This document shows positions 2,150 to 22,173 of a DNA stretch of 64,000 bases, piece by piece. Location: the NCBI RefSeq assembly GCF_054482595.1, contig NZ_CM137008.1; one strand, 5' to 3'. The position numbers and the translations under genes are program-made. How positions within the stretch are numbered: the stretch's first letter is position 1; every line of letters starts with the position of its first letter. The notes beneath the pieces are model-generated. The model was not told where the DNA came from. It did no database searches and was given only the letters and a program-made list of their open reading frames with translations.

Positions 2150-2611
2150 TTATTTCACTTCTTTAAAACCAGCGGCTTTCATCACCAGTTCCATTTGCGC
2201 CATAGTGATACCTTTTTTGGCATCTTCAGCAGAAACGTTGATTCCTGAAATACCCTGCAGGGCTTTAAAATCTACTTTTTCCATATCGATAGTCACGTTT
2301 TCCTGCGCGTAGGTATCGGTATAGGTTAATTTTTCTTCAACACCCGCGATGTTTTTGTATTTGGCGCTTAACGGCTCAAGTGTCTTGGCAGCATCTTCTT
2401 TGGTGGTTGCACCAATGGAGGCAAATTGAATTTTGGTTTCAGAAGATTGCTTAAGCACCTTGTCACCTTTGTAGACATAGGTAATGGCAATTTCAGTGCC
2501 GTTCAGATTGGCGCTGAATTTCTTCGATTCTTCTTTGTCACCGCAGCCAGCAAGAGAGAAAACCAGAACAGATGCAACAACAAGGGAAAACAGCTTATTG
2601 AAAGCCTTCAT
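2150..2611 (-). CDS. yehR: YehR, predicted lipoprotein (153 aa)
   Basis: Signal peptide with lipobox LAGC (MKAFNKLFSLVVASVLVFSLAGCGDKEE); ORF trimmed to the ATG at 2611. Confidence 0.8.
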   Translation of the reverse strand: MKAFNKLFSLVVASVLVFSLAGCGDKEESKKFSANLNGTEIAITYVYKGDKVLKQSSETKIQFASIGATTKEDAAKTLEPLSAKYKNIAGVEEKLTYTDTYAQENVTIDMEKVDFKALQGISGINVSAEDAKKGITMAQMELVMKAAGFKEVK

Positions 2612-2735
2612 GTAAAACTCCATTTTATTTAATCAAGGAACTGGTGACTCTCACCAGGGGCTATATAGGATATGCCTAATACCGTGGCGTGAGCAGTCCG
2701 GAACTGGAGTAGAACTCTTAGTAAAAAGCACTATT

Positions 2736-4736
2736 TCATCCTTGTTGCTGAAGCATAGGGAATAATTGTTCGCACAGCAAAACACCGTTATTCATTGTTT
2801 CTACCCGTGCCTCGCTTTCTGTATTACGAAATTGTCCCAACACATGTGCCAGCCGATAAAAACCCACCGCGGTGAGGTCATTCGCCAGCAACTCTGCCTG
2901 ACCAATAGCACTCTGTTCCTGATAGCGCCAGCCGTTATGGAGCAGTTGAATAAGTAATGCCTGGCAGCGCATCAGCAACTGATGAGCAGTAGACGGCACA
3001 GGCAGAACGCTGGCAGAAGGTAGCGGTGCCACAGGCGCAGTTTCTGCGTCCAGCGCCCAGGCACGAGTCTTTGTCATCATTACCTGTGGTTCCAGTGTCA
3101 ATTGCCCATCAACAAAACTGACAAAGCCAGAAACCAGACACACGGGGTCGTCTGTTTGTTGCAAAAGCGCCGCCATGCGTTCAACGGCATAAGGCGCGCT
3201 GGCTGAGGCTGGCAGTGATAACGTCAGCTGATTATCTTCACCTTCGCCGCTGATTACCTGCGCATCCAGCGTTTGGCGGCTGCTATCCCAACCTAGTGAA
3301 ATACACTCAGCGACCGGCAGAATAAATAAGTTATCGACCTGATTAAGAGGCCGTATGCAGGCGGGGGGACGCTGGCGTAAATATTCCCGCAAAGCCACAA
3401 TGCCCGGCTGGCGCAACGGCGCGCTCAACATTTGCCAGGCATCTGGCGACAGTGGAACAACACTACTCAAGCGGTTACGGGTCGCGAACAGCAGTTCGCC
3501 TTCGGCACTGCGACGCGCTGCTTGTGAAACAATTTGCCCACCTGCCAGTGCGCCAGCCTGAAAACTAAACAGCCGACGTTTTGCCGCGGGAGCGTTTTCT
3601 TGTTCGCTTCTCGGCCAACTACGCGAAAGATGCAAAATACTGCCGGTGTCGGGATCGGTAAACCAGATGCGTAAACCATAATGCTCAATATCCTGCCAGC
3701 AACGCATACCTAAAGACACCAGCCGCAGATGATCAAGCTTTGCTTCTCCGGCAATGCCAGAGCCAACGACCGTGCGCCACGGCACAGGAGGAACTTCACC
3801 AACACTGTCGCGCCGGGCCATCTCTTGTGCGCAATTTAATCGACTGTTTAATGCCGCAAGCTGACGTAAGCATTCTCCGGCATGATAGTGGCTGGCGCGG
3901 GCGTGGAAGGCATCAACGCTGGCGCGCAGTTGCCGTAGCGATTCACTCACCCAGCGCCAGTTGCAGGCCTCTGCCGCCTGCAATGCGCGGTTGAAAGCGG
4001 CCTCGTAGTGAATAAGCGGCTGGCTGATGCCGCTCAGCCATAATGCCTGGCTTAGTTGTTGAACATATTGACGACACGTTTTGCCTTCTTCGCTGGCAAA
4101 CGGATCGTCAGATGATGTGACGTGTTCGCTGCGCATCTGCCAGATTAAATGAGTAAATTCCGCTTGCTGAGTTTTTGCCTGGACAAAGGCCTGTACTGCC
4201 AGTACGACATGTTCGCAAAGTGTGCCTTCAATACAATCACAACGGGCGAAACGAATGCTGCTACGGGAATAAAAACGCACATCGCTCATCGGTAAGCGGG
4301 CAGAGGGAATTTCGCCCGGCGTACAGAACAACTCAATGGTGATGCCTTTAGCGACCAGCGCCTGTGCGCGTTTGCGGGTGGTATCGGGCAGGGTAGCCAG
4401 TTCTTCCAGCCAGATTGCCGGATCCCACTCTTCTTCTTTTTCCGTGGGCTGGACGGTGGCACAAAGTCGTTGATAACTTAACACCAGCATCACGCGATGA
4501 CGGCACATGCCGCTGGCCCCGCAGCTGCACTGAGCCTCTTTCAGTGCCTGGCTGTTCGCCAGCTGGGTACGGACACCGTCACTGAAGGTGGCGATTAAAG
4601 CGCCGTTCTCATGGCTGATCTCCGGGACGTTGCCATTTTCCAGTTCCTTAAGACTGCGCTTAACAAAACCGGCATTGCTTAACGCTGTCAGGGCCTGCGG
4701 TGTCAGTTCTAATAATTCCGGACGTAGTGAATTCAT
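2736..4736 (-). CDS. yehQ: YehQ, SWIM zinc-finger protein (666 aa)
   Basis: Two CxC...CxH motifs (CSCGASGMCRHRVMLVL and CDCIEGTLCEHVVLAV); start ATG at 4734-4736 overlaps the yehP stop (ATGA). Confidence 0.8.
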   Translation of the reverse strand: MNSLRPELLELTPQALTALSNAGFVKRSLKELENGNVPEISHENGALIATFSDGVRTQLANSQALKEAQCSCGASGMCRHRVMLVLSYQRLCATVQPTEKEEEWDPAIWLEELATLPDTTRKRAQALVAKGITIELFCTPGEIPSARLPMSDVRFYSRSSIRFARCDCIEGTLCEHVVLAVQAFVQAKTQQAEFTHLIWQMRSEHVTSSDDPFASEEGKTCRQYVQQLSQALWLSGISQPLIHYEAAFNRALQAAEACNWRWVSESLRQLRASVDAFHARASHYHAGECLRQLAALNSRLNCAQEMARRDSVGEVPPVPWRTVVGSGIAGEAKLDHLRLVSLGMRCWQDIEHYGLRIWFTDPDTGSILHLSRSWPRSEQENAPAAKRRLFSFQAGALAGGQIVSQAARRSAEGELLFATRNRLSSVVPLSPDAWQMLSAPLRQPGIVALREYLRQRPPACIRPLNQVDNLFILPVAECISLGWDSSRQTLDAQVISGEGEDNQLTLSLPASASAPYAVERMAALLQQTDDPVCLVSGFVSFVDGQLTLEPQVMMTKTRAWALDAETAPVAPLPSASVLPVPSTAHQLLMRCQALLIQLLHNGWRYQEQSAIGQAELLANDLTAVGFYRLAHVLGQFRNTESEARVETMNNGVLLCEQLFPMLQQQG

Positions 4737-5869
4737 GACTGAAGATTCTCCGCAAGCCATGATGCCAGCTCGCCCGGTGTCATGGCGGCTATTTGTGCGC
4801 CGACATTTACCAGCACCTGGGCCGTATCGTGGTCATAGCAAGGTGTTGCGGTGCTATCGAGCGCCGCCAGTCCCAGCACTTTGATGCCGCTCTGGACACA
4901 CTTTTTCACCTGATGCGTCAGTAATGATGATGAACCCCCTTCGTAAAAATCGCTCACGAGGATAATGACGCTTTTCGCTGGTTGTTCAATAAGTTGCCGA
5001 CCATATTCCACGGCACTGGCGATATTGGTTCCGCCGCCTAATTGCACTTTCATTAATAACTCTACCGGATCGGCAACGTCTGCCGTGAGATCAACCACGC
5101 TGGTGTCAAACGCCACCAGATGGGTACGAATGCCGGGTAACTGCCATAAACAGGCCGCCATCACCGCAGAGTGGATCACCGAATCGACCATCGAGCCGCT
5201 TTGATCAACCAGTAAGACCAGTTGCCATTGTTCGCTTTGGCGTTTAATGCGGCTGTTAAAGCGGGGGGATTCGATATACAACTTGCCGTGTTGCGGGTGC
5301 CAGTGTTGCAGGTTGGCGCGCAGAGTACTTTTGAAATCAAAGTTTCGCGCCAGTGGAATAAATGAGCGGCGACGGCGATCGCGGACACCAGAAAAAGCCT
5401 GACGAACTTCCTTTGCCAGTCGAGCCATAATTTCTTCAACAACCTGGCGCACTATCCGGCGGGCGGCAGCCAGTACTTCGGGATTCATCAGATGTTTGGT
5501 GTGCAAAACGGCGCGTAGCAGGCTTTCAGAAGGCTGCATACGTTCCAGCACGTCGAGATTCGTCACCACATCTTCAATGCCATAGCGCAGTACGGCATCG
5601 CTTTCCAGCCGCTCAATCACCTGTTGCGGAAACAGCGTGTGAATACTGTTGATCCACTCAGGGGGGGTGAGATTTGAGCCACCTAATCCACCGGAGCGTT
5701 CACCACGCTGGAGCCGTTCAGGATCGCGCCCATACAGCCACTCCAGCGCGTGGTCTATCTGCCGGGCGTTGTCATCCAGCCCACAAAGCGTCGTTTCTGC
5801 CGCTTCGCCAAGAATTAATCGCCAGCGTTGTAGCTCACGGGTGGTCAGAAGATCGTTCAGTTCAGACAT
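4733..5869 (-). CDS. yehP: YehP, von Willebrand factor A (vWA) domain protein (378 aa)
   Basis: MIDAS-type motif LLVDQSGSM followed by ...GGGTNIASAV... and ...ILVSDFYEGG; start ATG 5867-5869 lies inside the yehM 3' end (8-nt overlap). Confidence 0.8.
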   Translation of the reverse strand: MSELNDLLTTRELQRWRLILGEAAETTLCGLDDNARQIDHALEWLYGRDPERLQRGERSGGLGGSNLTPPEWINSIHTLFPQQVIERLESDAVLRYGIEDVVTNLDVLERMQPSESLLRAVLHTKHLMNPEVLAAARRIVRQVVEEIMARLAKEVRQAFSGVRDRRRRSFIPLARNFDFKSTLRANLQHWHPQHGKLYIESPRFNSRIKRQSEQWQLVLLVDQSGSMVDSVIHSAVMAACLWQLPGIRTHLVAFDTSVVDLTADVADPVELLMKVQLGGGTNIASAVEYGRQLIEQPAKSVIILVSDFYEGGSSSLLTHQVKKCVQSGIKVLGLAALDSTATPCYDHDTAQVLVNVGAQIAAMTPGELASWLAENLQS

Positions 5870-8141
5870 GGAAAACTCCCCAGTTTTGCAGCGATGCCAG
5901 TGCCTGCTGTTCGAGTTGTTGATGATGTGCAATGGCTTGTGGTGGACAATGCAACGGCATTTGCAGCGCCGAAACGGGAAGTTGCGCCAGTTGATAATGC
6001 TCAAGCACCTGATGCGCCAGCGTCCCGCGTTCTCGTGGTGGTAGCCAGGCCATCGCCGCGCGTAAATCGGGCAGGGCATTGATAAAATTGGCATCACTCA
6101 GTTGATTTAAATGACTGCTGAAACCGGCGATAAATGCCGGCTGACAGGCCAGTTGATGACGGGCTAATGCCAGCAAACCGTGCAGCGCTTCGCCGGATTG
6201 TGCCGGGGATAACTGCGCCAGCATCGTCAGCGCCGCTTCGGCACTGGCGTTGGGATGTTCCAGACGCATCAGTGCGCCAAGAGCCGCGCCGCGATCCAGC
6301 GCCGGGGCATGGATTGCCTGACTGCGTCGCTCCAGTAAGGCTACCGCCGCAGAAAGAGAAATGCCGGGGAGCTGCACACCGCTATGCAGATCGCGCAGGA
6401 TATGACACAACGCTTGCCAGCTATGCAGGTGAGCGTGAAACTCCTTTTCATCCGGTCTGCCGTTGGATTCACACAGCCACAGCGTGCGATCGATAGCCGC
6501 GCATAACGTCGTTTGTAATATCTGCGCGCCTTGCATACCGCTAATTTCATCCAGCCGCCATAAGGCATATAGCACTTCCAGCGCCTGGCCCATTTCGGCA
6601 AATTGATTTTCCTGGGCTATTAATAATGTGAGTTGTTCCAGTAATTGTTGACTGAAGGACGCCAGACCCGCTAACGCTGCCTGGCTAAGACATGTGGTGA
6701 TACTGCCGATTCCACCCGCGTCCAGCATATCGGCTTCTAATTTATGGCGTGCGGCTTCCTGGAGTGTGGCACCAAAGCAGGCGGCCTCAATCAATGCCGC
6801 ATGCTGGCTAAGCGGGCGGGTTAATTTCCAGCGTTCTTCACCGTTGCCTGCAAGTGTCAGTGTGCTTCCCTGCTGGCGTACAATCCCTGGGATCTCCAGT
6901 ATTGCCAGCCGATGTAACACCTGACTTTGCGCTAGTCCATTGGGGTTAAAGCGATTTAAGGTAAGCTCCGCCGGAAGAGAGATTGCGGTACGTTCCAGTT
7001 CGCAGGTGACATCTTTTGGCAGAGGCGGTTGTGGCGTAGAAGGGGCAAGTTTACCGAATCCGTCACCCGCTAATGTGTCTATCAACGTTAGCAGAATCGG
7101 ATCGGTGTCGGGATGAATAACTCCGCGATAGCTCCACGGCAACGGCGCGTTCAGGGCTTCTTTAATCAGCGAGCCTGCTATGGCATCCAGCCAGTCAGTG
7201 CGTAACGGTAGTTTATGTCCGCGCAACTGTGCCAGCGCCATCGCATGCAGATGAGCGGCAGCCATATCCGCGGTCGAAGCAGGCAAGTGGTGTTGGCGCA
7301 AACGGGTAAGAACCGTTTTTAGCAGTTGTTCTCCCGCCTGCTGTAAGCCCCACTGCCAGCACCAGCTTTGCCAGACCGGGGCAGGCATTCCTGAAAGGTA
7401 TCCTGCCAGCACATCAAGGCGCTTTTCACTGTAGGGTGTGAGATAACAACCTGTAACGGCATCTGCCAGCGAGGGCAATTCTGGCTTGTTAATGTCCTGC
7501 GGGCATTCGCGCCACATTTTTGCCAGTGCCGGAGCGTGCCAGCCACCGCAGACGACTAACACGTCGCCATTATTTTGCTGCACCGCCCATGCAATCCAGC
7601 GAGCCATAAAGGCTTCGCGCTGACGATTGAGTGCATCGCCGGGGAAATCGCCCCGCAGTTGGGCAAAATAGTGCGCCAGTGCAGAGGGTAATGCAGTTTG
7701 CTGGCTTTCATCTTCGAACAAGTGATCCCACAGGGTATCGCTGTTATCCATGCGGGTGGCACGCAGCAGCAAGGTCTGGCTTTCCTCTTGCGTATCAGGC
7801 GAATCGTCCTCTTCTTCACTCTGTGCCCAGCAAGGCAAATCGATGAAGTAAGTTTGTGCCTGAATACGACGAGCGGCTTGTAGCGCCTGCCACTCCGGCG
7901 AAAATTCAGCAAATGGCGTCCAGGCACCACGCCCGGGGGCTGCACCGTCCTGATACTGGCAATAACTGTAAATAGCTACCGGAAGCTGGTGGGCTAAAAA
8001 CAGTTCGTCTACCCGGTCATTAAAATCAGCCGGGCCTTCAATCAACACGTATCGTGGCCGCTGGCTTTCGATTAACGATTTCACCAGCCGGGCGCAGGCC
8101 GGACTATGATGCCGGATGCCGACAATTAACGGCTCGCTCAT
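5862..8141 (-). CDS. yehM: YehM, large uncharacterized protein (759 aa)
   Basis: Long ORF trimmed to MSEPLIVGIRHH (ATG at 8139-8141), 10 nt downstream of the yehL stop; no motif I can assign with confidence. Confidence 0.75.
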   Translation of the reverse strand: MSEPLIVGIRHHSPACARLVKSLIESQRPRYVLIEGPADFNDRVDELFLAHQLPVAIYSYCQYQDGAAPGRGAWTPFAEFSPEWQALQAARRIQAQTYFIDLPCWAQSEEEDDSPDTQEESQTLLLRATRMDNSDTLWDHLFEDESQQTALPSALAHYFAQLRGDFPGDALNRQREAFMARWIAWAVQQNNGDVLVVCGGWHAPALAKMWRECPQDINKPELPSLADAVTGCYLTPYSEKRLDVLAGYLSGMPAPVWQSWCWQWGLQQAGEQLLKTVLTRLRQHHLPASTADMAAAHLHAMALAQLRGHKLPLRTDWLDAIAGSLIKEALNAPLPWSYRGVIHPDTDPILLTLIDTLAGDGFGKLAPSTPQPPLPKDVTCELERTAISLPAELTLNRFNPNGLAQSQVLHRLAILEIPGIVRQQGSTLTLAGNGEERWKLTRPLSQHAALIEAACFGATLQEAARHKLEADMLDAGGIGSITTCLSQAALAGLASFSQQLLEQLTLLIAQENQFAEMGQALEVLYALWRLDEISGMQGAQILQTTLCAAIDRTLWLCESNGRPDEKEFHAHLHSWQALCHILRDLHSGVQLPGISLSAAVALLERRSQAIHAPALDRGAALGALMRLEHPNASAEAALTMLAQLSPAQSGEALHGLLALARHQLACQPAFIAGFSSHLNQLSDANFINALPDLRAAMAWLPPRERGTLAHQVLEHYQLAQLPVSALQMPLHCPPQAIAHHQQLEQQALASLQNWGVFHV

Positions 8142-8151
8142 GCATCTTTCC

Positions 8152-9240
8152 TCACGGCAGGCGGTGGCGGGCTTGATAATAAGCCTGCCAGTGAGCTTCT
8201 TTATGTGTGGCGACACGCTGTTCGAAGTAACGGCGCAGACGAGCGCGATCTTCTTCGTTATCTTTGACGATGGTTCCGGCAATGCAGTCCACCAGATCGG
8301 CTGGCTCACCTGCGCGATTCGCTAAAAACCAGGCGCGGACGCCCACGGCGTGGGCCACGTTCACGGCTTCAGCGGTGGACATAATCGCTGTTAGTGTATC
8401 CATTGACGTTTTCTTTTCGCCGTTGGCACGCAGATCGCGGAAGGTGCGGACCAGTAACTCCAGTACCGCGTCAGGCACTTTATGCGGAATACCGCTATGG
8501 GCCAGCAAACGCGCCGAAGCACTGGCGACAAGCTCCAGCTCCTGGGCGAAATCCATAATCGGAAAGACAGTTTCAAAATCGAAGCGACGCTTTAGCGCAG
8601 CACTCATTTCATTGACGCCGCGATCGCGGGTATTGGCAGTGGCAATAATATTAAAGCCTTCTCGCGCATAGAGCTGACTGGCTTCACCAGTGAGTTCCGG
8701 CACCGTCATCACCCTGTCAGAAAGCATACCTAACAGACAGTCTTGCACTTCCAGCGGTGTACGCGTTATCTCTTCAAAACGGACGATTTTGCCGTCGCGC
8801 ATTCCCTGGTAAAGCGGGGCAGGGACCAGCGCTTCCGTTGATGGACCATGATTGATAAGCAGGGCGTAGTTCCAGCCGTACTTGATTTGATCTTCGGTAG
8901 TAGATGCGCCGCCCTGGATGGTTAACCCGGCATCGCCGCTAATAGCGGTTACCAGTAATTCAGACAGGAGAGATTTTGCGGTGCCAGGTTCCCCCACCAA
9001 CATCAAACCGCGTCCGGTGGCAAGAGTGACTAACATACGTTCGACAGCGGAGGGACTAATCACCACTTTACGGCTAATATTTTGCGCGCTATCGCCAAGG
9101 ATAAAAGCACGGGCCGCAGGCAAACTTAACTGCCAACCGGGCGGGCAAGGTGCGTTATCATTTTGTTTTAATTTTGCCAGTTCATCGGCGTATAACACAG
9201 CAGCAGGCGGACGCTGCAGATGATTATTCTGCGGTGACAT
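8152..9240 (-). CDS. yehL: YehL, MoxR-family AAA+ ATPase (362 aa)
   Basis: Walker A GEPGTAKS and AAA+ core; ORF trimmed to MSPQNNHLQRPPA (ATG at 9238-9240). Confidence 0.85.
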   Translation of the reverse strand: MSPQNNHLQRPPAAVLYADELAKLKQNDNAPCPPGWQLSLPAARAFILGDSAQNISRKVVISPSAVERMLVTLATGRGLMLVGEPGTAKSLLSELLVTAISGDAGLTIQGGASTTEDQIKYGWNYALLINHGPSTEALVPAPLYQGMRDGKIVRFEEITRTPLEVQDCLLGMLSDRVMTVPELTGEASQLYAREGFNIIATANTRDRGVNEMSAALKRRFDFETVFPIMDFAQELELVASASARLLAHSGIPHKVPDAVLELLVRTFRDLRANGEKKTSMDTLTAIMSTAEAVNVAHAVGVRAWFLANRAGEPADLVDCIAGTIVKDNEEDRARLRRYFEQRVATHKEAHWQAYYQARHRLP

Positions 9241-9349
9241 ATATTCATCCCTGAAATGTATTAATGAAATAAACGATATTTTACGCGCAATAAATGTTTG
9301 GCTCATTAGTTGTTTGAGCGAAAAATATCTGGAAAGCAGATCACAGTAA

Positions 9350-9388
9350 ATAAAAAAACCTGCTGGTGAGGCAGGTTCTTTTATTTAC
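9350..9388. terminator. Bidirectional intrinsic-terminator-like hairpin, unit A; candidate 3' end of an antisense sRNA
   Basis: aaaaaaa-cctgc-tggtgag-gcagg-ttcttttattt: GC stem flanked by an A-run on one side and a T-run on the other. Confidence 0.5.
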
Positions 9389-9672
9389 TATTTTCAGGCC
9401 TAACACCACAGCCTGTGCAACATCGTGTTCCAACGAACGAATTATAACCACGGCTGGACCCCGTTGCAATTAAGATAATGAGATTTATAATCCAGACCGT
9501 TGGGACGTTGCGCCGGATCGAACCTATTTCAAGTCCTGGCTACCGGACGGGTGGTGCTTCAGGTGGTGCCCTGAGCCGGAGTGCAACATCGTGGTCCAAC
9601 ATACGTAAACCAGTATTGACAGGCAGTGTAAGGGTAAGGTGCTGGTGTTGCGCTCCTTAATAAGGAGAGCGG

Positions 9673-9762
9673 ATGGACTCGCTGACACAAAAGTTAACCG
9701 TGCTCATTGCTGTACTGGAGCTATTAGTAGCTCTGTTACGGTTGATTGATTTGTTGAAGTAA
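9673..9762 (+). CDS. zorP: Small hydrophobic 29-aa protein MDSLTQKLTVLIAVLELLVALLRLIDLLK; candidate type I toxin (ZorO/ZorP-like)
   Basis: ATG 9673 preceded by AGGAG (9662-9669) that lies in an inverted repeat (ctcctta/taaggag) able to sequester the RBS; single predicted TM helix; followed by a hairpin. Symbol recalled from the E. coli O157 zor-orz locus; which copy is O and which is P is uncertain. Confidence 0.55.
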   Translation: MDSLTQKLTVLIAVLELLVALLRLIDLLK

Positions 9763-9783
9763 CGGGCAAATTGAAACGCATCT

Positions 9784-10858: not shown

Positions 10859-13800
10859 TTAATGGAAAATGACGTCAGGTGCGCTTAACGCCTCACTCAA
10901 ATTAAACACATCAAGTTCGGCAAAAGTGACGGATTTATTGTCACGGTACACTCGAAGAGAACGGAAGCTCATTAACGCTTTGCTATCAACATTGTAGTGG
11001 TTAAAACCGGGTGAAAACTTAAGGACCAGCCGGTACTCGCCCAGGTCATAGACAAATGCATCCTCATAGCCTGACTCCCAGCCTTTGTATCGCATTCCCA
11101 TAAGCTGCCCAACGGTAGCGGATTTACCTTCCCAGCGAGTCAGGCTGTTACTGGTTGACTCGTCAGGTGTGAGCAGCACCGTGCGCCGCGCCAACTGGCG
11201 AAAAGGCGGCATAATTTCGTAATCGGCAAAAAGCTGTGCAAATTCACTGCGCATTTCTACTGTCATTTCTAACGGGTGGGCAATGCCAATCAGAGCGTCC
11301 GCAGGCAGGTCAATTGGCTCATCTTGCGCATTGCAGAACTCCCCCTCTGCGGCCACACGAAAGGCGTTGAGTAAACAACGCGGTTCATTTGCCGGATAAG
11401 CCCCCCATATTAATCGCTGGGTAACCAGACGGGTAAAGGGATGATTAACAAACAGAGAATGAAAATCTGCCAGCGACCAGCGTCGGGTGGTACGTAGGGC
11501 CGTTTCAAGACGCGGGAGCAGGTTTTTGCTCACCTGAGTAGCATCTTTTTTTAGCCCTTTTAGTCGGGCCAGTGCCTCGGGCGCTTTCAGTTGATCGTCA
11601 TCGGCACGCAACCGGGGAACACTTTTCTGGCGAACGTTTTGTTGATCAAAGATAACCGGGTTGAGGTTTTCATCGAAGCGAACGGTAAACTGCCGGGGAC
11701 CAAAATCAAAAATCAACGCCTGCGGATCATCAAGACCTAGTGTTGGGACTAATCTGTCCGCTAACTCTTCCTGGCTTAGCCCGCGATTTTCTGCGACCAC
11801 CTGAAGAAATTCCGCTGCGTTTTCACGTAATGAAGAGGATTTCGCCCGTTGTGATACATGATGCAGCTGTATCAGCGCCATATCATTATTCATCAAGGTA
11901 AGTATATTCAGACCAATGACAGCACGGGCAGATTTGCCTTCTTGTGGCCAGGCGAGGATCTGTGTCGTCAGATCCCGAGCCGTGCTTTCGTCACCAAAGA
12001 GACTTAACGCCAGAAATGCCCAGTTGTCTTTTGCGGGGGCACCAGCTTGTTGCCACGCAGTGAAGAGATCCCAGGCAAAAGCGGCCAGCGTTTGTGGCTG
12101 GCAAAACGTTTTCAGTTGTTCCAGACCGCTATAAAAACGTCCGCCCTGGGTAAAGCGCAGCATTTCGCCGATAATTTCCAGAGCGTCATCGGTAACAGGC
12201 TGATTATTAGTGATAAGTCGCGGCCTGGACCACATTGCCGGATGCCAGAAATCAGGGGCTTTTGGAATGCGTGCCGGGTAAATGTCCATTGGACCCTGTT
12301 TCAGTAAATGCTCCAGGGCAGGCCATACATCTGTACGCTGCCAGCGGTTTGCCACGGTTTGCAGCAATTCACCATGTCCCTGTTCGTAAAGTAAACGCAG
12401 GGCAAGTAATGCAGCTTCGCTATTATCGCTGGATTTGGTGAAGACAAGAGGGATAAGTGCAGTAGCCGTATGTTCCGGCCAATGTAAAATCCACTGGCGA
12501 GCCAGATCACGCTGCACCGCGAAACGTCGCCAGACGCGGGCAACGGGCAGGGCCAGTTCTGTTGCGCCAAAATTTAAAATTAACGGAAATGTTTCTTTTG
12601 GACGATGTAAAAAAGCCAACATCAGACCTGGTAGCGCATCCAACCCGAGGATACTGAGAAAATAGTCCTCACCCGCGAACAGATGTTTTTTCTCATTGAT
12701 ACGCAGCCAGAAGGTCAAAGCCATCTCACGCGGCAACTGTGCCAATAAATACAGGTTCCAGACACTCTTTTCCGGACGATAACGTGAGTAGTTGTCATTT
12801 TCCCATATGTTAATTAACGCTTCTATGTGACCGCTGCGGAGCGCCTGTTCTGCTAATTGTGCTTCCGGGGAGTTCCAGCCATTCAGGATCTCTTCAACCC
12901 GCCCCTGGTAGTAATGCCACTGAACAATGAGTGAATTGCGTGCAGCATCCAGTTTTCCGGGGAGTATATAATTCAGAAACAGCCATACATCATCCCCAAA
13001 ACCCAGTTCCTGTAATACAACTCGCCCACTTTTTTGTTCCATGCGTTCCGCAAGAGATTCCGTGCTGAAATAACGGGCAGACTCAGTGGAGGCAAGCCAC
13101 TCTTGTTCGCCTGGTTGCCAGTAAACTTGCGGGGTTAATTCGAGCGGTGCCAAATCAAGACGTGGAGCTGTCATTTTTTTCTTACTACGCCACGGTGGTG
13201 AAACGAGGATTTCAGGCAGATTGCTGTTATCGGTGCCATCAATAACCGGTTTGGGCGGTGCCAATAAATAACTATTCAGTACTGCCCGGGCTTGAGTACT
13301 TAACCACTGCATCACCTCTTCTGCCAGTTGTGGCTGCGATGCCATCAGCGTTTGTAACAGCGTACGCCAGTATTCATCGCGTGCTTTTTGCTGGGCAGGC
13401 AGCTTTTTGTCTTCGATGATTGGATAACCAAGGCGGGCTGGTGGTTCTTTTAACGCCAGCAGTTCTGCCAGTGCCGCGAGCGTCGCGTGGGGGAAGTTTT
13501 TACTGTATTTAGCCACACGTTGCAGGCTGGGTTTGTTTTTATCAGCCACCAGTAGCAAGGTGTGGATGACCTGCGGATGGTTAATTTGTACCAACAGACT
13601 GCCGCAATCTTCTTTATGGGCATACATCGCGAGGCGCGGAATGGCTGCCAGTCCTTGTTCGCGCAAAAGGGCGGCGCAGGCCGCGTAGCCGAAGTGGTTT
13701 TTTTGTGACATGTAGCTGGCTTCGCGATCGCTAAATACGTCCAGGCCCCAGTATCGTTCGAGTTTTTTTACCGCCGTATTATCAGTAGCAACGACCTTTA

Positions 13801-14491
13801 ACCACTCCTTTGAATGGAGACTTGACCGGGAGCTTTCAAGACTGGCGAGTTCATTGGCTATTTCAGGCTTTTCCGGGAGGATCAGCGCAATAAAAGGACG
13901 GCGAATTTTGGGTATTCCTGGCAGTGCGGCAATGAGTTTATCGGCACAACGCTGCCAGCAACTTTCCTCTGCCAGCGACAGATGCTTACGCAAACGGAGA
14001 TCGAAATCGTTATAGGTCGCGGAGCCATAACCGTAGCCATAGTCCTCGTCCTGATACTGCAAAGTGACGACCAGTGAATCACTCTCATAACGCCGCGCAA
14101 TGCACTGACGCGCCATCACTACATCCGTCGCATATTCCAGCCCCTCTTGTTGGACGATTTCGTCGAGCAACTGTTGGCTGTCATTTTGCGCGATACAGGC
14201 TAGCGCCGCCATTGTCCGGGCCGGGATTGAGGGTTTGTGTTCGCCGATCAAGTTGATGGCCTGCGTGATGGCGGACTGCCACTCCAGTGAAAAATTTTCA
14301 TAACGCCAGACAATGTTTTTTTTCTTCTCAGCTTTTTGTAGCAATTCATCACCCAGTGTCTGAATGATGCTTTCAGTGATAACAGGCACTGGTTCGCCCG
14401 GCCAATTGCGATGGCTGAGTGGTGTTTTACCCTTTTTATATTTCAGTTCCAGTTGGGCGTTATCAGCCAGCCACGGTAATTCCTTGTCCAT
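10859..14491 (-). CDS. yehI: YehI, giant DUF4132-type protein (1210 aa); paralogue lacking the N-terminal WGR-like domain
   Basis: Aligns with the two upstream paralogues from the LPWLAD(N/D)AQ motif onward; conserved C-terminal block (RLxPxLGLDD...FGPRQFTV..FDE.L.P); RBS aaggaaagag upstream. Confidence 0.8.
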   Translation of the reverse strand: MDKELPWLADNAQLELKYKKGKTPLSHRNWPGEPVPVITESIIQTLGDELLQKAEKKKNIVWRYENFSLEWQSAITQAINLIGEHKPSIPARTMAALACIAQNDSQQLLDEIVQQEGLEYATDVVMARQCIARRYESDSLVVTLQYQDEDYGYGYGSATYNDFDLRLRKHLSLAEESCWQRCADKLIAALPGIPKIRRPFIALILPEKPEIANELASLESSRSSLHSKEWLKVVATDNTAVKKLERYWGLDVFSDREASYMSQKNHFGYAACAALLREQGLAAIPRLAMYAHKEDCGSLLVQINHPQVIHTLLLVADKNKPSLQRVAKYSKNFPHATLAALAELLALKEPPARLGYPIIEDKKLPAQQKARDEYWRTLLQTLMASQPQLAEEVMQWLSTQARAVLNSYLLAPPKPVIDGTDNSNLPEILVSPPWRSKKKMTAPRLDLAPLELTPQVYWQPGEQEWLASTESARYFSTESLAERMEQKSGRVVLQELGFGDDVWLFLNYILPGKLDAARNSLIVQWHYYQGRVEEILNGWNSPEAQLAEQALRSGHIEALINIWENDNYSRYRPEKSVWNLYLLAQLPREMALTFWLRINEKKHLFAGEDYFLSILGLDALPGLMLAFLHRPKETFPLILNFGATELALPVARVWRRFAVQRDLARQWILHWPEHTATALIPLVFTKSSDNSEAALLALRLLYEQGHGELLQTVANRWQRTDVWPALEHLLKQGPMDIYPARIPKAPDFWHPAMWSRPRLITNNQPVTDDALEIIGEMLRFTQGGRFYSGLEQLKTFCQPQTLAAFAWDLFTAWQQAGAPAKDNWAFLALSLFGDESTARDLTTQILAWPQEGKSARAVIGLNILTLMNNDMALIQLHHVSQRAKSSSLRENAAEFLQVVAENRGLSQEELADRLVPTLGLDDPQALIFDFGPRQFTVRFDENLNPVIFDQQNVRQKSVPRLRADDDQLKAPEALARLKGLKKDATQVSKNLLPRLETALRTTRRWSLADFHSLFVNHPFTRLVTQRLIWGAYPANEPRCLLNAFRVAAEGEFCNAQDEPIDLPADALIGIAHPLEMTVEMRSEFAQLFADYEIMPPFRQLARRTVLLTPDESTSNSLTRWEGKSATVGQLMGMRYKGWESGYEDAFVYDLGEYRLVLKFSPGFNHYNVDSKALMSFRSLRVYRDNKSVTFAELDVFNLSEALSAPDVIFH

Positions 14492-14500: not shown

Positions 14501-17500
14501 TTATTCAAACAGGGCTTCAATATCGTTAATTAGCTCGCTGGCGGTGATGGCATCGAGTACGGAGAGCTGCGCTTCCTGTGTTGAATTACTCCCCCAGCCA
14601 TAGCTTTCCGCTTTGCCTTCCCATAGCCACTGCTTGCTTAAGAGTTGCTCGGCACTCAGTTCGGCTGGCGACATGCCTACCGCAAAGCCTTCATCGATTT
14701 CCATGATTAACGACCAGCGGCCCAGAGGTTTGATCATCCAGCCGATCCAGCCTCCATCCTGTGGTTCGCCCTTTATCCAGCCTTTATTCGCCAGCCCCAT
14801 TACCCGACCGCTCGGGCATTTTCTGCCTGCCCAGCGGGTCAGTTCGCTGGCATTGCGCTCGGTTTCTGTCAGGGCGTAACTGTTACGGTCGAGCTGGCGG
14901 AACGGCGGTAGCAGTTCGTAGTCGGCAAAAAGCTGCCCAAATGCGGCGGCATCCGTCGGTGATATTTCCAGAACGTGAGGAATACCAACAGAGATATCGC
15001 CTTCCGGCAGGGTGAAAAGATCATCGTCAGCGGTGCTGTAGCTGTTATCTTCCGCTACCCGGAAACAGGCCAGTAGCTGGTTTTCGGCGCTATAAACGCC
15101 CCAAATCAGACGGCGGGTTAAGTGGCGAACTAGCGGATGCTCAACCAGGAAGAGCTGAAAGTTATCCGGTGACCAGCGGCGACGCAGGCACATGGCGGAT
15201 TCCAGCCTTGCTACCTGCTGGGCGGCGACGGTACGCGCATCTTTTTTCAGCAGTTTGTAGCGGTTAACAGCATCGTTCGCCTGTGATTCATCATCGCTTT
15301 TGTTTGGTTTGGGCAGGTCTTTCAGACGGCTGCCAGAAACATCACGCACAAACGGTTTTAAGGTTTCATCAAAGCTGACGGTGAACTGGCGTGAGCCGAA
15401 ATCCAGCAGCAACGAACCGTTATCATCCAGACCGAGATCCGGTGCTAACCGATCTTCAAGCTCTGCCACCGTGAGTTCGCGGCTTTCGGCAATGTCGGCA
15501 ATTTTTTCTTTTGCCCGCTCCTGTAATGCTTTGAATTTCAGTTTCTGGGCAATACCGTTAAGCTGCATCAGGGCGATATCACTACCGATAGCGGCGAGAA
15601 TATCCAACCCAACGGTGGCGCGTTTATGCTGGGATTCACCAGGCCAGGCGCGTATTAATGGCGTCAGTTTGCGGGCGGTGTCATCGTTACCAAGAACGCC
15701 TAACGCAGTGAACGCCCAACTCTCTTTCGACGGTGCGCCCGCAGTCAGCCAGGCGGTAAACAGATCCCAGGCAAATTCAGCCAGTGAGTCGGCGGTACAG
15801 GCATCTTTCACCTGCAATAATCCCGGATACAGGGCCTCTTCCTGAGGGAAGCGGAGCATTTCACCGAGGTGCTGGAGTGCGCTATCTGGCAGTGATTGGG
15901 CGTTTGTATTTAATACCGGGCGCGTCCAGAGCGATGGCTGATAAAAGGCCGGAAGAGTGGGGATTTTTGTCGGGTGATTATCTAAGGGATCGAGCGCAAG
16001 CAGAGCGTTCACCGCGTCGGTTACTTCCGGCTGGTTATAACGCCGGGCGATTTCTTGCAGTAATGGCTGATGACCGTTTTCGGTAAGCATACGTAAGGCA
16101 GCGCGAGCGTTATCTTGTGCTTCACCGGCTTTGCCGAGCGCCGAAGGCAGCAGGCCGGTTATGGCGTGTTCCGGGTATTTTAGCAGCCAGCTACGGGCGT
16201 CTTGTCGTAGGGTTTTGAGTTTGTTGAAGGCGCGGGCAATGAATGGAGCCAATTCGACAGCCGCGAAATATTGTGCCACGGGAAGAGCTTCCTGCGGATA
16301 GCGAGATGCTGAGTGGATAAAACCTGTTAAACCAGCAAGTCGAAGATGCAACATTACTTGTTTTTCACCTGTATGTGGTTCTTTACTAAGGATATTCCAC
16401 ATCTCAATAGCTTTATTTATGGGTAAAACATGGAGTGAAGAAAGCTTCCATTCGCCCTGATAAGGGGCGTTATAGGACTTAAAAGCATCGATCAAAGTTA
16501 AATAATCTTCACGCTGCCAAGCATCCAACGCTATTTCTGGAATATCAATATAGCCTCTATGTTTGTTCCAATCCCAGCGGTCGAATCCCAGGGAATTCAG
16601 AAAACCTTTTTCTCCCTCTGCTTGCTGACGAGGTTGCCAATTATGCTGCACTTGTAGTCTTTTGCTTTTTGTTTCATTTATTGTACAGAAAGATTCCAGG
16701 GGTAATGGTGCTAAATCCAGCACTGGAGTCGGCGATTTTTTCTTTTTAGCCTGCCACGGCGGTGAGACTAATACGGCAGGCAGCATATCGGCGTTCGCAT
16801 AAACTGAAGGTTGTGTCAGTTGTTGCTGGCATGACTTAAGAACGGTAACTGTCGGGGCAGATAGCCAGGAGATCACCCGTTCTACTAATGTTGGTTGTGA
16901 GATAAGCATCGTCATTAGCATCATGCGCCAGCGCTTTTCATCTTTTTGTGCCAGAAGTTCTGCTAATGCCGCCAGCGCTGCATGTGGAAAGCGAACGAAA
17001 GCCTTTGTCATGCGATCGTGGCAACGCTTTCCCTGCTCACTTGCATGGATAAGTAGTGTAAGTGCTTGCGGGTGGTTGATATGCATCAACACTTCCCCAC
17101 ATGTGTCACCAGCAGCGTAAGGGGCAAAACGGGCCAACGCAGCGACACCTTGCTCCTTGAGTACTGTCGCACACCAGATTTTACCGCCGTAATAATCATC
17201 AAATACCTGCCCTGGCTGTCCTGGATAGTATTTCCCCAGTTCTGCCAATACCTGCTCGTCGGTGGTCGTCAGTTTTAGCCATTCCAGCGCATATACCCCT
17301 TTTTGTCCGCAAAGATGTCTGGCAATCTCATGAGCTACTTCTGGTTTTTCCGGCAACAATAGTGCGACCAGCGGCTGGTTCCAGGCGGGCATGTTTCCGA
17401 GAGCGGCAATCAGTTTGTCGGCGCAGCGCTGCCATACATCGTCATTTGCAAGTGAGAGATGCTTACGCAGGCGCATTTCAACCGAAGCGAAGCGTGACAG

Positions 17501-18259
17501 ATAGTCAGGCTGCTTGTTATCCGGGGTAAAAGTAATGAGGTGGGCATCATAATTCCAGTCAAATCGGATGAATTGCAATGCGATGACAACCTCAGTGGCA
17601 TATTCCAGACCACCTTCCTGGACAATTTGATCCATTAACTCTTCGTGATCGTTACGATTGAAGCCTTGCTCCAGCGCAACCAGTACCGCCAGAACCATCG
17701 GTAGTAGTGTGGTGCTAATCGGCGAGTCGATAAGGCCCACTGCTTGTGTAATCGCCTGCTGCCAGTCCAGTGAACAGGTGCTGTAATCGAAGGTGATCAC
17801 CTTTTTAAAACGCCGGTGAGTATTCGCGGAGACGGAGCGTAGCAGGGTTAATTCATTCTCCTTTGGCACAGGATCGCCAGGCCAGCGTCGATGACTTAGT
17901 GTGGTTGGCGCAACCTCTGTCGGTAAAATGATTTGGGCGTCGTCTGCCAGCCAGGGGAGGTGGTCTCCAGTCAATGCTGGTTTGTCTTGTGGCAAAGGGG
18001 CTATTTCAGGGCATTCGATAACCTGGGTGGGTACAGATGTCGGTGTCATCACGGATACTTCTTCTACGTAGCCCTTTTTTGTTTTCTCCGCAATCAGCTT
18101 CAGTTCCGCTTTTTCCGCCGCCGCAGCATCTGCAAAGCTTTTTACCTGACTTTGCCCGTTAGTGCCGACTTTACCCCAGGTTATATGCAGCTCGTTTCTC
18201 TGCTGCTCCACCGCCCAGAATTTATGTGATTTTTCGTCCTGATAAATATAGGTTTTCAT
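14501..18259 (-). CDS. Giant WGR-domain / DUF4132-type protein (1252 aa), MolR/YehH-like paralogue
   Basis: N-terminal MKTYIYQDEKSHKFWAVEQQRNELHITWGKVGTNGQ (WGR-like); N-terminal and C-terminal segments are near-identical at DNA level to the 1266-aa paralogue; RBS aagga upstream. Confidence 0.8.
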   Translation of the reverse strand: MKTYIYQDEKSHKFWAVEQQRNELHITWGKVGTNGQSQVKSFADAAAAEKAELKLIAEKTKKGYVEEVSVMTPTSVPTQVIECPEIAPLPQDKPALTGDHLPWLADDAQIILPTEVAPTTLSHRRWPGDPVPKENELTLLRSVSANTHRRFKKVITFDYSTCSLDWQQAITQAVGLIDSPISTTLLPMVLAVLVALEQGFNRNDHEELMDQIVQEGGLEYATEVVIALQFIRFDWNYDAHLITFTPDNKQPDYLSRFASVEMRLRKHLSLANDDVWQRCADKLIAALGNMPAWNQPLVALLLPEKPEVAHEIARHLCGQKGVYALEWLKLTTTDEQVLAELGKYYPGQPGQVFDDYYGGKIWCATVLKEQGVAALARFAPYAAGDTCGEVLMHINHPQALTLLIHASEQGKRCHDRMTKAFVRFPHAALAALAELLAQKDEKRWRMMLMTMLISQPTLVERVISWLSAPTVTVLKSCQQQLTQPSVYANADMLPAVLVSPPWQAKKKKSPTPVLDLAPLPLESFCTINETKSKRLQVQHNWQPRQQAEGEKGFLNSLGFDRWDWNKHRGYIDIPEIALDAWQREDYLTLIDAFKSYNAPYQGEWKLSSLHVLPINKAIEMWNILSKEPHTGEKQVMLHLRLAGLTGFIHSASRYPQEALPVAQYFAAVELAPFIARAFNKLKTLRQDARSWLLKYPEHAITGLLPSALGKAGEAQDNARAALRMLTENGHQPLLQEIARRYNQPEVTDAVNALLALDPLDNHPTKIPTLPAFYQPSLWTRPVLNTNAQSLPDSALQHLGEMLRFPQEEALYPGLLQVKDACTADSLAEFAWDLFTAWLTAGAPSKESWAFTALGVLGNDDTARKLTPLIRAWPGESQHKRATVGLDILAAIGSDIALMQLNGIAQKLKFKALQERAKEKIADIAESRELTVAELEDRLAPDLGLDDNGSLLLDFGSRQFTVSFDETLKPFVRDVSGSRLKDLPKPNKSDDESQANDAVNRYKLLKKDARTVAAQQVARLESAMCLRRRWSPDNFQLFLVEHPLVRHLTRRLIWGVYSAENQLLACFRVAEDNSYSTADDDLFTLPEGDISVGIPHVLEISPTDAAAFGQLFADYELLPPFRQLDRNSYALTETERNASELTRWAGRKCPSGRVMGLANKGWIKGEPQDGGWIGWMIKPLGRWSLIMEIDEGFAVGMSPAELSAEQLLSKQWLWEGKAESYGWGSNSTQEAQLSVLDAITASELINDIEALFE

Positions 18260-22072: not shown

Positions 22073-22173
22073 TCTGCATCCCTGTAATTTTATCCAGTTG
22101 AATGCAGATGCTACCAGTATTTATGCGGGTTAGAGAGAGACAAAATCGTAAGAAAACAACTTTAGGAATTTAT

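What the first reader, a model, noticed from the sequence alone, without database searches (positions are those of the whole stretch)
2736..9240. Translationally coupled yehLMPQ operon: MoxR AAA+ ATPase, large unknown protein, vWA protein, SWIM zinc-finger protein
Four co-directional genes with overlapping or near-abutting boundaries: yehL stop to yehM start 10 nt, yehM/yehP 8-nt overlap, yehP/yehQ ATGA overlap. This implies obligatory co-expression. YehL carries Walker A GEPGTAKS, YehP a MIDAS motif (DQSGSM), and YehQ two CxC...CxH SWIM-like zinc fingers. MoxR-vWA pairs elsewhere (RavA-ViaA, CbbQ-CbbO, NorQ-NorD) act as ATP-driven remodelling or metal-insertion modules, and MoxR-vWA modules recur in NTP-dependent conflict systems. 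The 759-aa YehM and the SWIM partner have no assigned role, so the module is a good candidate for an uncharacterized stress, conflict or defence machine.
Basis: partly seen in the sequence, partly recalled or inferred. Interest (0 to 1): 0.8.

Follow-up and report, generated by a model that had tools for sequence, protein, structure and literature searches.

The report
DNA-damage-linked MoxR–vWA machine (yehLMPQ)
The four E. coli genes yehLMPQ are the core of an uncharacterised five-part ATP-driven protein machine, conserved across several bacterial phyla, that contains a likely hydrolase and likely DNA-binding modules and sits behind DNA-damage-responsive control sequences in three distantly related groups of bacteria.

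Summary
On the minus strand, yehL (9240-8152), yehM (8141-5862), yehP (5869-4733) and yehQ (4736-2736) have a 10-nt gap, an 8-nt overlap and an ATGA overlap. YehL is an AAA_5/MoxR ATPase, YehP a CoxE-type vWA protein with a complete MIDAS motif, and YehQ has an invariant SWIM finger.

New results:
1. The unit is incomplete. In 69 of 80 loci a DUF4132 gene, usually with an N-terminal WGR domain and often in 2-4 tandem copies, directly adjoins the four genes. This window has three copies (molR-like, a second paralogue, yehI).
2. YehM (DUF5682) models as a TIKI/TraB/ChaN-like domain with invariant His and Glu residues, followed by a HEAT-like solenoid.
3. YehQ carries a tandem OB-fold region resembling RPA70, HIN and POT1.
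4. Three unrelated DNA-damage control signals sit upstream of the system: a LexA box at molR here, an RDRM-like site in Deinococcus, and a PafBC-type promoter motif in Actinobacteria.

No defence-system model matches, and no metalloenzyme gene is a conserved neighbour.

Best reading: a DNA-damage-induced, DNA-targeted remodelling and hydrolysis machine. Function is inferred, not shown. E. coli K-12 carries a degraded copy.

The parts
8152..9240 (-). yehL: MoxR-class AAA+ ATPase (AAA_5), 362 aa
   Evidence: Pfam AAA_5 1.8e-33. Walker A 83-90, F155-E156-E157 in the Walker B position, and R218/R219 are >=95% conserved in 80 homologues. The best solved relatives by sequence are midasin AAA modules, 8.5e-10. 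dN/dS against K-12 is 0.056.
5862..8141 (-). yehM: DUF5682, 759 aa. N-terminal TIKI/TraB/ChaN-like alpha/beta domain (about 1-245), helical and small alpha/beta middle, C-terminal HEAT-like solenoid (about 445-755)
4733..5869 (-). yehP: CoxE-type vWA protein with a complete MIDAS motif, 378 aa
   Evidence: Pfam VWA_CoxE 1.5e-71. D222, S224 and S226 are 100% conserved; T281 and D307 are >=97%. dN/dS is 0.065.
2736..4736 (-). yehQ: SWIM zinc-finger protein, 666 aa. One invariant and one lineage-specific SWIM motif, helical bundles, and a tandem OB-fold-like beta region (about 330-560)
10859..14491 (-). yehI: DUF4132 protein, 1210 aa, without a WGR domain. Conserved fifth component (paralogue 3)
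   Evidence: Pfam DUF4132 2.3e-46. YehI-like ORFs directly adjoin the four genes in 69/80 loci. dN/dS is 0.20.
14501..18259 (-). WGR-DUF4132 paralogue 2, 1252 aa
   Evidence: ORF. 47% identical to paralogue 1. WGR found in 2 of the 3 sequences scanned.
18272..22072 (-). molR-like WGR-DUF4132 paralogue 1, 1266 aa, intact here and degraded in K-12
   Evidence: Translation. Pfam WGR 3.2e-19 at residues 6-69. The WGR region matches PDB 2ra8 at 1.1e-17. In K-12 the region is yehF plus the yehH pseudogene.
22082..22097 (-). LexA (SOS) box-like site aaCTGGATAAAATTACAGgg, 10 nt upstream of the molR-like ATG
   Evidence: one mismatch to CTGT-N8-ACAG. molR is listed among E. coli LexA-regulated genes with a known SOS box (PMC6590174).

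Best explanation
yehLMPQ encodes the motor, adaptor, enzyme-scaffold and DNA-binder of a conserved five-component machine. Its fifth part is one or more WGR-DUF4132 proteins (here the molR-like gene, a second paralogue, and yehI).

Proposed mechanism:
1. YehL forms a MoxR-type AAA+ ring.
2. YehP couples the ring, through its MIDAS site, to an acidic residue of a client protein, as midasin and the CbbQ/O, NorQ/D and CoxD/E pairs do.
3. YehM binds YehP through its HEAT-like solenoid and contributes a TIKI/TraB-type His/Glu hydrolase site.
4. YehQ (SWIM plus tandem OB folds) and the WGR domains of the DUF4132 proteins direct the complex to DNA: single-stranded DNA, breaks, or a protein stuck on DNA.
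5. The machine is made after DNA damage and extracts and/or cleaves a DNA-associated protein target.

Shown here:
- The operon and its coupled junctions.
- The domain identities.
- Cross-phylum synteny of the components.
- Natural YehM-YehP fusions.
- Purifying selection on the genes.
- DNA-damage control sequences upstream of the system in three phyla.

Inferred, not shown:
- Complex formation.
- DNA binding.
- Hydrolase activity.
- The identity of the substrate.
For: Synteny:
- L-M-P-Q are in the same order and on the same strand in 73/80 loci. DUF4132 adjoins them in 69/80, with 2-4 tandem copies in 29. WGR is found in the DUF4132 ORFs of 49 loci.
- The same five genes occur in very divergent metagenomic relatives, with 1-11-nt overlaps, and on a Bacillus plasmid.
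- DUF5682-VWA fusion proteins exist.

Catalytic motifs are conserved.

Folds:
- YehM N-domain matches the TIKI superfamily. PMC6254334 names the same structures as TIKI members with a 2His/2Glu active site.
- The YehQ beta region matches RPA70, HIN, POT1 and LEF-3.
- WGR is the DNA-break-binding domain of PARPs (established knowledge).

DNA-damage control:
- E. coli: molR is LexA-regulated, and the box is present here.
- Deinococcus deserti: a radiation-induced five-gene operon starts with a SWIM protein and has a MoxR ATPase as its third gene (PMC4007540).
- Deinococcus taeanensis: a locus with that same order (SWIM-DUF5691-AAA-DUF5682-VWA). Its AAA, DUF5682 and VWA proteins match my HMMs at 4e-109, 1e-104 and 2e-88.
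- That locus has an exact RDRM-like 17-mer at the operon promoter, with 0.01 expected by chance.
- D. radiodurans: the DUF4132 and WGR proteins are induced by mitomycin C in an IrrE/DdrO-dependent way.
- Actinobacteria: 10 of 24 matches to the PafBC-type motif TGTCRGTG-N8-TANNNT lie just upstream of the first cluster gene, in 7 genera. These windows are 1.9% of the sequence; binomial P about 1e-11.

Selection: dN/dS is 0.06-0.20.

No metalloenzyme or other extra gene family is conserved next to the cluster.
Against: - No experiment ties any Yeh protein to DNA or to damage tolerance.
- In E. coli the LexA box controls molR. yehLMPQ is separated from molR by yehK and two zor/orz modules with terminators, and it is H-NS-silenced. 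SOS induction of yehLMPQ itself is therefore not shown.
- No LexA box was found upstream of the cluster in 48 other loci, including other Gamma- and Betaproteobacteria.
- The RDRM and PafBC consensus strings I searched with come from memory.
- The OB-fold matches are marginal (Foldseek E about 1e-3 at best).
- The TIKI assignment rests on fold and motif order only. A profile search of PDB sequences and hhalign against a YbaP/TraB alignment found nothing.
- The D. deserti operon was matched through a congener's locus, not directly.
- Some TIKI-fold proteins (ChaN, PMT) are not hydrolases.
Confidence: 0.45

Rival explanations
1. An anti-phage or anti-invader conflict system. The WGR and OB/SWIM modules sense foreign DNA or phage-induced DNA damage. 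The MoxR-vWA pair acts as a threshold switch. The YehM hydrolase is the effector, as in the vWA-MoxR ternary systems.
For: - MoxR-vWA pairs are used as switches in conflict systems (PMC7159879).
- The phyletic distribution is patchy and includes megaplasmids.
- The DUF4132 partner is expanded into tandem paralogues with the highest dN/dS, 0.20.
- The operon is H-NS-silenced and has a higher G+C than its flanks.
- Parts are pseudogenised in K-12 and XH990.
- Type I toxin-antitoxin modules are inserted in the locus.
Against: - No PADLOC match for any of six proteins.
- The architecture is uniform across phyla, with no swapping of effector domains.
- The locus is core and in a fixed position in 5361/5426 E. 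coli genomes.
- No conserved association with mobile-element or defence genes in 80 loci.
- The eLife survey of vWA-MoxR conflict systems does not include SWIM, WGR, DUF4132 or YehL.
- The PHROG hits are exact copies of E. coli genes and most likely come from over-extended prophage calls.
Confidence: 0.2
2. A general stress chaperone or complex-maturation module like RavA-ViaA. It would act on a protein complex unrelated to DNA. The damage-regulon signals would reflect general stress induction.
For: - MoxR proteins characterised so far mature or activate specific protein complexes (PMC3893208).
- The HEAT-like solenoid and the large helical DUF4132 proteins could be protein-protein scaffolds.
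- A yehP knockout was reported to alter swarming (cited in PMC2790909).
Against: - It does not explain the WGR domain, the OB-like region, or three independent DNA-damage-specific control motifs.
- No candidate client gene is conserved nearby.
Confidence: 0.15
3. A metal-centre or cofactor insertion system of the CoxD/CoxE, NorQ/NorD or chelatase type. This would fit the old name of molR, 'molybdate metabolism regulator'.
For: - YehP is in the CoxE vWA family.
- YehL has weak NCBIfam similarity to GvpN/MadB, and YehP to a cobaltochelatase subunit.
- The combination of a roughly 1200-aa partner, an AAA ATPase and a vWA protein resembles CobN/S/T in outline (established knowledge).
- One TIKI-fold relative, ChaN, binds haem.
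Against: - No oxidoreductase, chelatase or cofactor-biosynthesis gene is conserved beside the cluster in 80 loci.
- The NCBIfam scores are far below the curated cut-offs.
- Molybdenum genes did not respond together with the Deinococcus DUF4132 and WGR genes.
- The SWIM, OB and WGR modules have no role in such systems.
Confidence: 0.1
4. In E. coli the locus is a silenced, decaying horizontally acquired remnant with no present function.
For: - yehL and yehM are H-NS-silenced.
- K-12 has a degraded molR and a YehQ lacking its last 52 residues.
- XH990 has frameshifted DUF4132 genes.
- Truncated YehM variants are common in the protein database.
- In ST131 the region receives transposon insertions.
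Against: - dN/dS of 0.06-0.14 for yehL, yehM, yehP and yehQ between two divergent strains indicates purifying selection.
- 5202 of 5426 genomes keep at least 80% of the region.
- All catalytic motifs are intact here.
Confidence: 0.05

Closest known systems
CoxD-CoxE, CbbQ-CbbO and NorQ-NorD (MoxR AAA_5 ATPase plus vWA/MIDAS adaptor pairs)
   Same: An AAA_5 ATPase gene sits next to a vWA gene with a complete MIDAS motif. YehP belongs to the CoxE vWA family. The likely shared principle is that an AAA+ ring pulls on a client held through the MIDAS site.
   Different: Those pairs sit inside the operon of the enzyme they mature. Here there is no enzyme client. Instead there are three further conserved partners: a TIKI-HEAT protein, a SWIM-OB protein and a WGR-DUF4132 protein.
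Midasin (Rea1/Mdn1)
   Same: Midasin AAA modules are the best solved sequence relatives of YehL. Midasin combines AAA_5 modules with a MIDAS domain and removes proteins from a nucleic-acid-protein particle.
   Different: Midasin is a single 5000-aa eukaryotic polypeptide with six fused AAA modules that acts on pre-60S ribosomes. The Yeh system is split over separate proteins and has a hydrolase-like domain.
vWA-MoxR-VMAP and iSTAND ternary conflict systems (Kaur et al. 2020)
   Same: A MoxR-vWA pair of CoxD/E ancestry is joined to extra conserved components. The vWA protein has a helical N-terminal region.
   Different: There is no VMAP or iSTAND protein, no variable effector domains and no PADLOC hit. 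The bpMoxR Pfam model matches only at E=0.0079.
RavA-ViaA of E. coli
   Same: It is the other MoxR-vWA pair of E. coli, also stress-regulated and with a debated function.
   Different: It belongs to a different MoxR subfamily, has two genes only, and has no SWIM, WGR or TIKI partners.
TIKI/TraB/PrgY/erythromycin-esterase/ChaN superfamily (Tiki, RRSP, EreB, HopBA1)
   Different: No sequence-profile link was detected. YehM fuses the domain to a 500-residue helical scaffold and works with an AAA+ motor. Hydrolase activity is untested.
p97/Cdc48 with SPRTN/Wss1 in DNA-protein crosslink repair (functional analogy only)
   Same: An AAA+ unfoldase cooperates with a DNA-targeted protease, induced or recruited after DNA damage.
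   Different: There is no homology of the components, and the analogy is wholly inferential.

Membership tests
MoxR family of AAA+ ATPases (YehL subfamily) | AAA+ module of the AAA_5/AAA_3 type with Walker A, Walker B, sensor and arginine-finger residues | tested here: met
   AAA_5 1.8e-33. G83-S90, E156/E157, N203 and R218/R219 are >=95% conserved in 80 homologues. The literature names YehL as a MoxR subfamily.
MoxR family of AAA+ ATPases (YehL subfamily) | Genomic pairing with a vWA-domain protein | tested here: met
   yehP lies two genes downstream in this window and in 76 of 80 loci.
MoxR family of AAA+ ATPases (YehL subfamily) | Hexameric ring with ATPase activity stimulated by the vWA partner | not testable with these tools
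   Needs biochemistry or a multimer structure prediction.
vWA/MIDAS proteins, CoxE type | vWA fold with the D-x-S-x-S ... T ... D metal-ion-dependent adhesion site | tested here: met
   VWA_CoxE 1.5e-71. D222, S224 and S226 are 100% conserved; T281 and D307 are >=97%.
CoxD/CoxE-type metal-cluster maturation systems | Located within or beside the operon of the metalloenzyme they mature | tested here: not met
   No enzyme family is shared by the flanks of 80 loci. The E. coli neighbours are metG, yehR, yehS and btsSR.
SWIM zinc-finger proteins | C-x-C-x(n)-C-x-H zinc-binding signature | tested here: met
   C70, C72, C78 and H80 are invariant in 43/43. The Pfam SWIM match is marginal at 1.1e-3. 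The second motif is kept in 24/43 only.
TIKI/TraB/Ere/ChaN superfamily (YehM N-domain) | Parallel beta-sheet core flanked by helices, as in TraB, ChaN, Bcr135, HopBA1 and RRSP | tested here: met
TIKI/TraB/Ere/ChaN superfamily (YehM N-domain) | Catalytic 2His/2Glu (His-Glu pair) at the strand ends | tested here: inconclusive
   H11/H12, E35, E176 and H202 are invariant and fall just after strands or in the helix where family members carry them.
TIKI/TraB/Ere/ChaN superfamily (YehM N-domain) | Detectable sequence-profile similarity to a family member | tested here: not met
   An HMM of the N-domain against PDB sequences found no family member. hhalign against an E. coli YbaP/TraB alignment gave probability 0.45%. 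Both profiles are shallow.
vWA-MoxR ternary conflict systems / known anti-phage defence systems | A VMAP or iSTAND third component, variable effector domains, or a match to a defence-system model | tested here: not met
   PADLOC gave no hit for six proteins. bpMoxR matches at only 0.0079. The architecture is uniform in 80 loci. The system is not described in PMC7159879.
SOS (LexA) regulon of E. coli | LexA box at the promoter and LexA-dependent induction | tested here: inconclusive
   A box is present 10 nt upstream of the molR-like gene, and molR is listed as LexA-regulated. For yehLMPQ itself no box was found, and two terminators intervene.
OB-fold DNA-binding proteins (YehQ residues about 330-560) | Two five-stranded beta-barrels with beta1-3/alpha/beta4-5 topology that bind DNA | tested here: inconclusive

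The most novel reading that the evidence does not exclude
The WGR-DUF4132 / YehL / YehM / YehP / YehQ system is a previously unrecognised bacterial DNA-repair machine. An AAA+-driven, DNA-targeted hydrolase would remove proteins trapped or crosslinked on damaged DNA, a prokaryotic counterpart in logic to p97-SPRTN. It would have been recruited independently into the LexA, PafBC and DdrO damage regulons.
Probability: 0.15. Interest if true: 0.9.

Novelty: new variant of a known kind. Interest (0 to 1): 0.68.

Why it matters
MoxR-vWA pairs are widespread, but few have a known client. This one is in nearly every E. coli and in at least six phyla, yet has no assigned function.

The analysis turns four 'y-genes' into a defined five-part system with testable parts:
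- a motor (YehL);
- a MIDAS adaptor (YehP);
- a candidate hydrolase on a scaffold (YehM);
- two kinds of candidate DNA readers (YehQ and the WGR-DUF4132 proteins).

It also links the system to DNA damage through three unrelated regulators. That would give a function to molR, an orphan member of the SOS regulon, and to radiation-induced orphan operons of Deinococcus.

A practical point follows. E. coli K-12 carries a degraded version (molR broken, YehQ truncated), so knockout collections built on K-12 are a poor place to look for a phenotype.

Tried and rejected
- PADLOC models for all six proteins: no hit.
- NCBIfam: only sub-threshold GvpN, MadB and cobaltochelatase similarities.
- PHROGs: full-length, near-identical families for every yeh gene. 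I judged these to be E. coli chromosome captured in prophage calls, not evidence of phage origin.
- PDB sequence searches for YehM, YehP and YehQ: nothing.
- N-domain HMM against PDB and hhalign against a YbaP/TraB alignment: no link.
- Search for further conserved neighbours by all-against-all BLAST of flanking ORFs from 80 loci: only shadow ORFs and lineage-specific genes.
- LexA boxes (CTGT-N8-ACAG, up to 1 mismatch) and actinobacterial LexA boxes upstream of the first cluster gene in 48 loci: none convincing. LexA control looks specific to Escherichia.
- Plasmid carriage: 44 of 72,556 records, mostly megaplasmids or mislabelled chromosomes, so the system is not a typical mobile cargo.
- Literature searches for yehL, yehM, yehP, yehQ, DUF5682 and DUF4132 gave no functional study. 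Many 'yehL' hits are the author name Yehl.
- The vWA-MoxR conflict-system paper does not cover this system.
- The D. deserti genome could not be fetched, so its operon was matched only through D. taeanensis.

Full report
**1. The observation**

The window is E. coli chromosome. The 6.5-kb region is 100% identical to strain XH990 and occurs in 5361 of 5426 complete E. coli genomes, once per genome. The genes lie on the minus strand:
- yehL 9240-8152
- yehM 8141-5862
- yehP 5869-4733
- yehQ 4736-2736

The quoted motifs are present. Pfam gives AAA_5 (1.8e-33), DUF5682 (1.4e-98), VWA_CoxE (1.5e-71) and a marginal SWIM match (1.1e-3).

In 80 homologues the Walker A motif, the FEE Walker B position and the arginine pair R218/R219 of YehL are conserved, as are all five MIDAS residues of YehP. 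The first SWIM finger of YehQ is invariant in 43/43 sequences. The second has all four ligands in only 24/43.

**2. The unit is larger than four genes**

I built an alignment of diverse YehM relatives. A full-library phmmer search had found 2262 cluster representatives. With that alignment I fetched 80 loci from Gamma- and Betaproteobacteria, Myxococcota/Deltaproteobacteria and Actinobacteria.
- 73 loci have L-M-P-Q in the same order and strand. Most exceptions are at contig ends.
- 69 loci also have a YehI-like DUF4132 gene directly adjoining. It is usually upstream of yehL, and downstream of yehQ in Burkholderia.
- 29 loci have two to four tandem DUF4132 copies.
- An N-terminal WGR domain is found in these ORFs in 49 loci.

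Very divergent relatives (31-32% identity to YehM), with gene calls and Pfam labels made by others, show the same arrangement. The order is WGR+DUF4132, AAA_5, DUF5682, VWA_CoxE, then a gene of about 690 aa, with overlaps of 1-11 nt. A Bacillus mycoides plasmid has the same order. DUF5682-VWA fusion proteins occur, one of them in an NCBI genome. No other gene family is shared by the flanks.

In this window the fifth component is present three times:
- a molR-like gene, 22072-18272 (1266 aa, with WGR);
- a second paralogue, 18259-14501 (1252 aa, with WGR);
- yehI, 14491-10859 (1210 aa, no WGR).

In E. coli, yehK and two zor/orz type I toxin-antitoxin modules have been inserted between yehI and yehL.

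**3. What the two 'unknown' proteins look like**

- two Bcr-type erythromycin-esterase-like proteins;
- EreC;
- PMT.

These are the proteins a structural paper lists as the TIKI superfamily, whose active members use a 2His/2Glu site (PMC6254334). The remaining hits are HEAT/ARM solenoids. In YehM, G8-x-R10-H11-H12 follows strand 1. E35 ends strand 2. R175-E176 lie in a helix. G199-G200-x-H202 follows a later strand. All are invariant across phyla.

Sequence-profile tests did not link YehM to the family. The assignment therefore rests on fold and motif order.

**4. Regulation points to DNA damage**

E. coli:
- A LexA-type box (aaCTGGATAAAATTACAGgg) lies 10 nt upstream of the molR-like start.
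- molR is listed among LexA-regulated genes with a known SOS box (PMC6590174).

Deinococcus:
- In D. deserti, a radiation-induced five-gene operon begins with a SWIM protein and has a MoxR ATPase as its third gene (PMC4007540).
- A D. taeanensis plasmid has that order: SWIM, DUF5691, AAA, a small ORF, DUF5682, VWA. Its AAA, DUF5682 and VWA proteins match my profiles at 4e-109, 1e-104 and 2e-88.
- An exact match to the radiation/desiccation response motif pattern sits at that operon's promoter. The expected number by chance is 0.01.
- In D. radiodurans, a DUF4132 protein and a WGR protein are induced by mitomycin C under IrrE/DdrO control.

Actinobacteria:
- 10 of the 24 matches to the PafBC-type promoter motif TGTCRGTG-N8-TANNNT in all 80 loci fall just upstream of the first cluster gene.
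- They are on the coding strand and come from seven genera.
- Those windows make up 1.9% of the sequence (binomial P about 1e-11).

Caveats:
- The RDRM and PafBC patterns are from my memory of the literature. PafBC as the main actinobacterial damage regulator is confirmed only by titles and abstracts.
- No LexA box was found in other proteobacterial loci.
- In E. coli, yehLMPQ is cut off from the molR promoter by two terminators and is H-NS-silenced.

**5. Other evidence**
- dN/dS between this strain and K-12 is 0.056 (yehL), 0.14 (yehM), 0.065 (yehP), 0.14 (yehQ) and 0.20 (yehI), against 0.02 for metG. This is purifying selection, but looser than for a housekeeping gene.
- K-12 has molR reduced to yehF plus the pseudogene yehH, and its YehQ lacks the last 52 residues.
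- PADLOC gives no hit.
- Plasmid carriage is rare.

**6. Interpretation**

The MoxR-vWA core most likely works as such pairs do elsewhere: an AAA+ ring applies force to a client held through the MIDAS site.

What is particular here is the company it keeps. There is a TIKI-like hydrolase on a HEAT scaffold that is sometimes fused to the vWA protein. There are also two kinds of likely nucleic-acid readers (WGR, and SWIM plus OB folds). Together with damage-regulon control in three phyla, this favours a DNA-damage-induced machine that extracts or cleaves a protein on DNA (confidence 0.45).

The rivals are:
- a defence system (0.2);
- a non-DNA stress chaperone (0.15);
- a cofactor-insertion system (0.1);
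- a decaying remnant in E. coli (0.05).

**7. Novelty**

The genes and their Pfam labels are known, and YehL is a named MoxR subfamily. In the literature I could search, these points were not found:
- the five-component definition;
- the fold assignments for YehM and YehQ;
- the convergence of three damage regulons on one system.

It is best filed as a new variant of the MoxR-vWA kind.

Noticed in passing
window 9318-10370 (orz sRNAs 9352-9427 and 9962-10035 on the minus strand; toxin ORFs 9673-9762 and 10281-10370 on the plus strand): There is a tandem duplication of about 610 nt. Each copy holds a zor/orz type I toxin-antitoxin module: an OrzO-P Rfam match (99.9 and 88.8 bits) and a 29-aa toxin ORF (MDSLTQKLTVLIAVLELLVALLRLIDLLK and MDTLTQ...). 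The modules sit between yehK and yehL, and their terminators separate yehLMPQ from the upstream DUF4132 genes. This is known from O157:H7 and is absent in K-12 (PMC2887945).
   Followed up: yes
window 4996-5011 (minus strand, within yehP): [quoted passage not shown] The change weakens the proposed Shine-Dalgarno-like stimulator. The 303-aa frameshift product would lack MIDAS residue D307.
   Followed up: partly
L082 (E. coli K-12 MG1655 2192000-2216000) compared with window 2736-22072: K-12 carries a degraded locus. molR is reduced to yehF (WGR only) plus the yehH pseudogene. YehQ stops at residue 614 of 666. The zor/orz modules are missing. K-12 knockouts may therefore be uninformative about this system.
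   Followed up: yes
window 10480-10797 (minus strand): yehK (105 aa) lies between yehI and the toxin-antitoxin modules. It has no Pfam, NCBIfam or PADLOC match and was not seen as a conserved member in other genera. It may be an Escherichia-specific insertion.
   Followed up: partly
L083 14598-21543 (NCBI GCA_022841245.1): One genome carries two systems in tandem. The first has a fused DUF5682-VWA protein (1180 aa). In the second, a 501-aa protein and a HEAT_2 protein replace the DUF4132 gene ahead of AAA_5-DUF5682-VWA. In Deinococcus the fifth slot is a DUF5691 protein instead (L087 6156-7610). The fifth component therefore seems to be the exchangeable one.
   Followed up: partly
window 2500-9300 compared with the flanks: G+C is 0.53-0.57 across yehLMPQ, against 0.43-0.49 in the intergenic and toxin-antitoxin region and about 0.50 in the flanks. 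This fits old horizontal acquisition and the reported H-NS binding upstream of yehL (PMC3686432).
   Followed up: partly
protein database hits P0017, P0035, P0038, P0051: Several abundant clusters of truncated E. coli YehM (424-600 aa, hundreds to over a thousand member sequences) exist beside the full-length clusters. Some may be contig-end fragments and others real truncations in particular lineages.
   Followed up: no
PHROG families 30700, 33984, 31592, 29006, 20839, 36295: PHROGs holds families that are near-identical, full-length copies of E. coli YehM, YehP, YehQ, YehI and YehK. These are probably host genes swept into prophage predictions. A PHROG hit for these genes should not be read as phage origin.
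   Followed up: partly
window 10859-22072 (metG/DUF4132/yeh region): In ST131 sublineage L1a, a blaCTX-M-15 transposon (TnMB1860) is inserted in this DUF4132 region (PMC9334617). In strain XH990, which is otherwise identical over yehLMPQ, the upstream DUF4132 genes are annotated as frameshifted or partial. They are intact ORFs in this window.
   Followed up: partly
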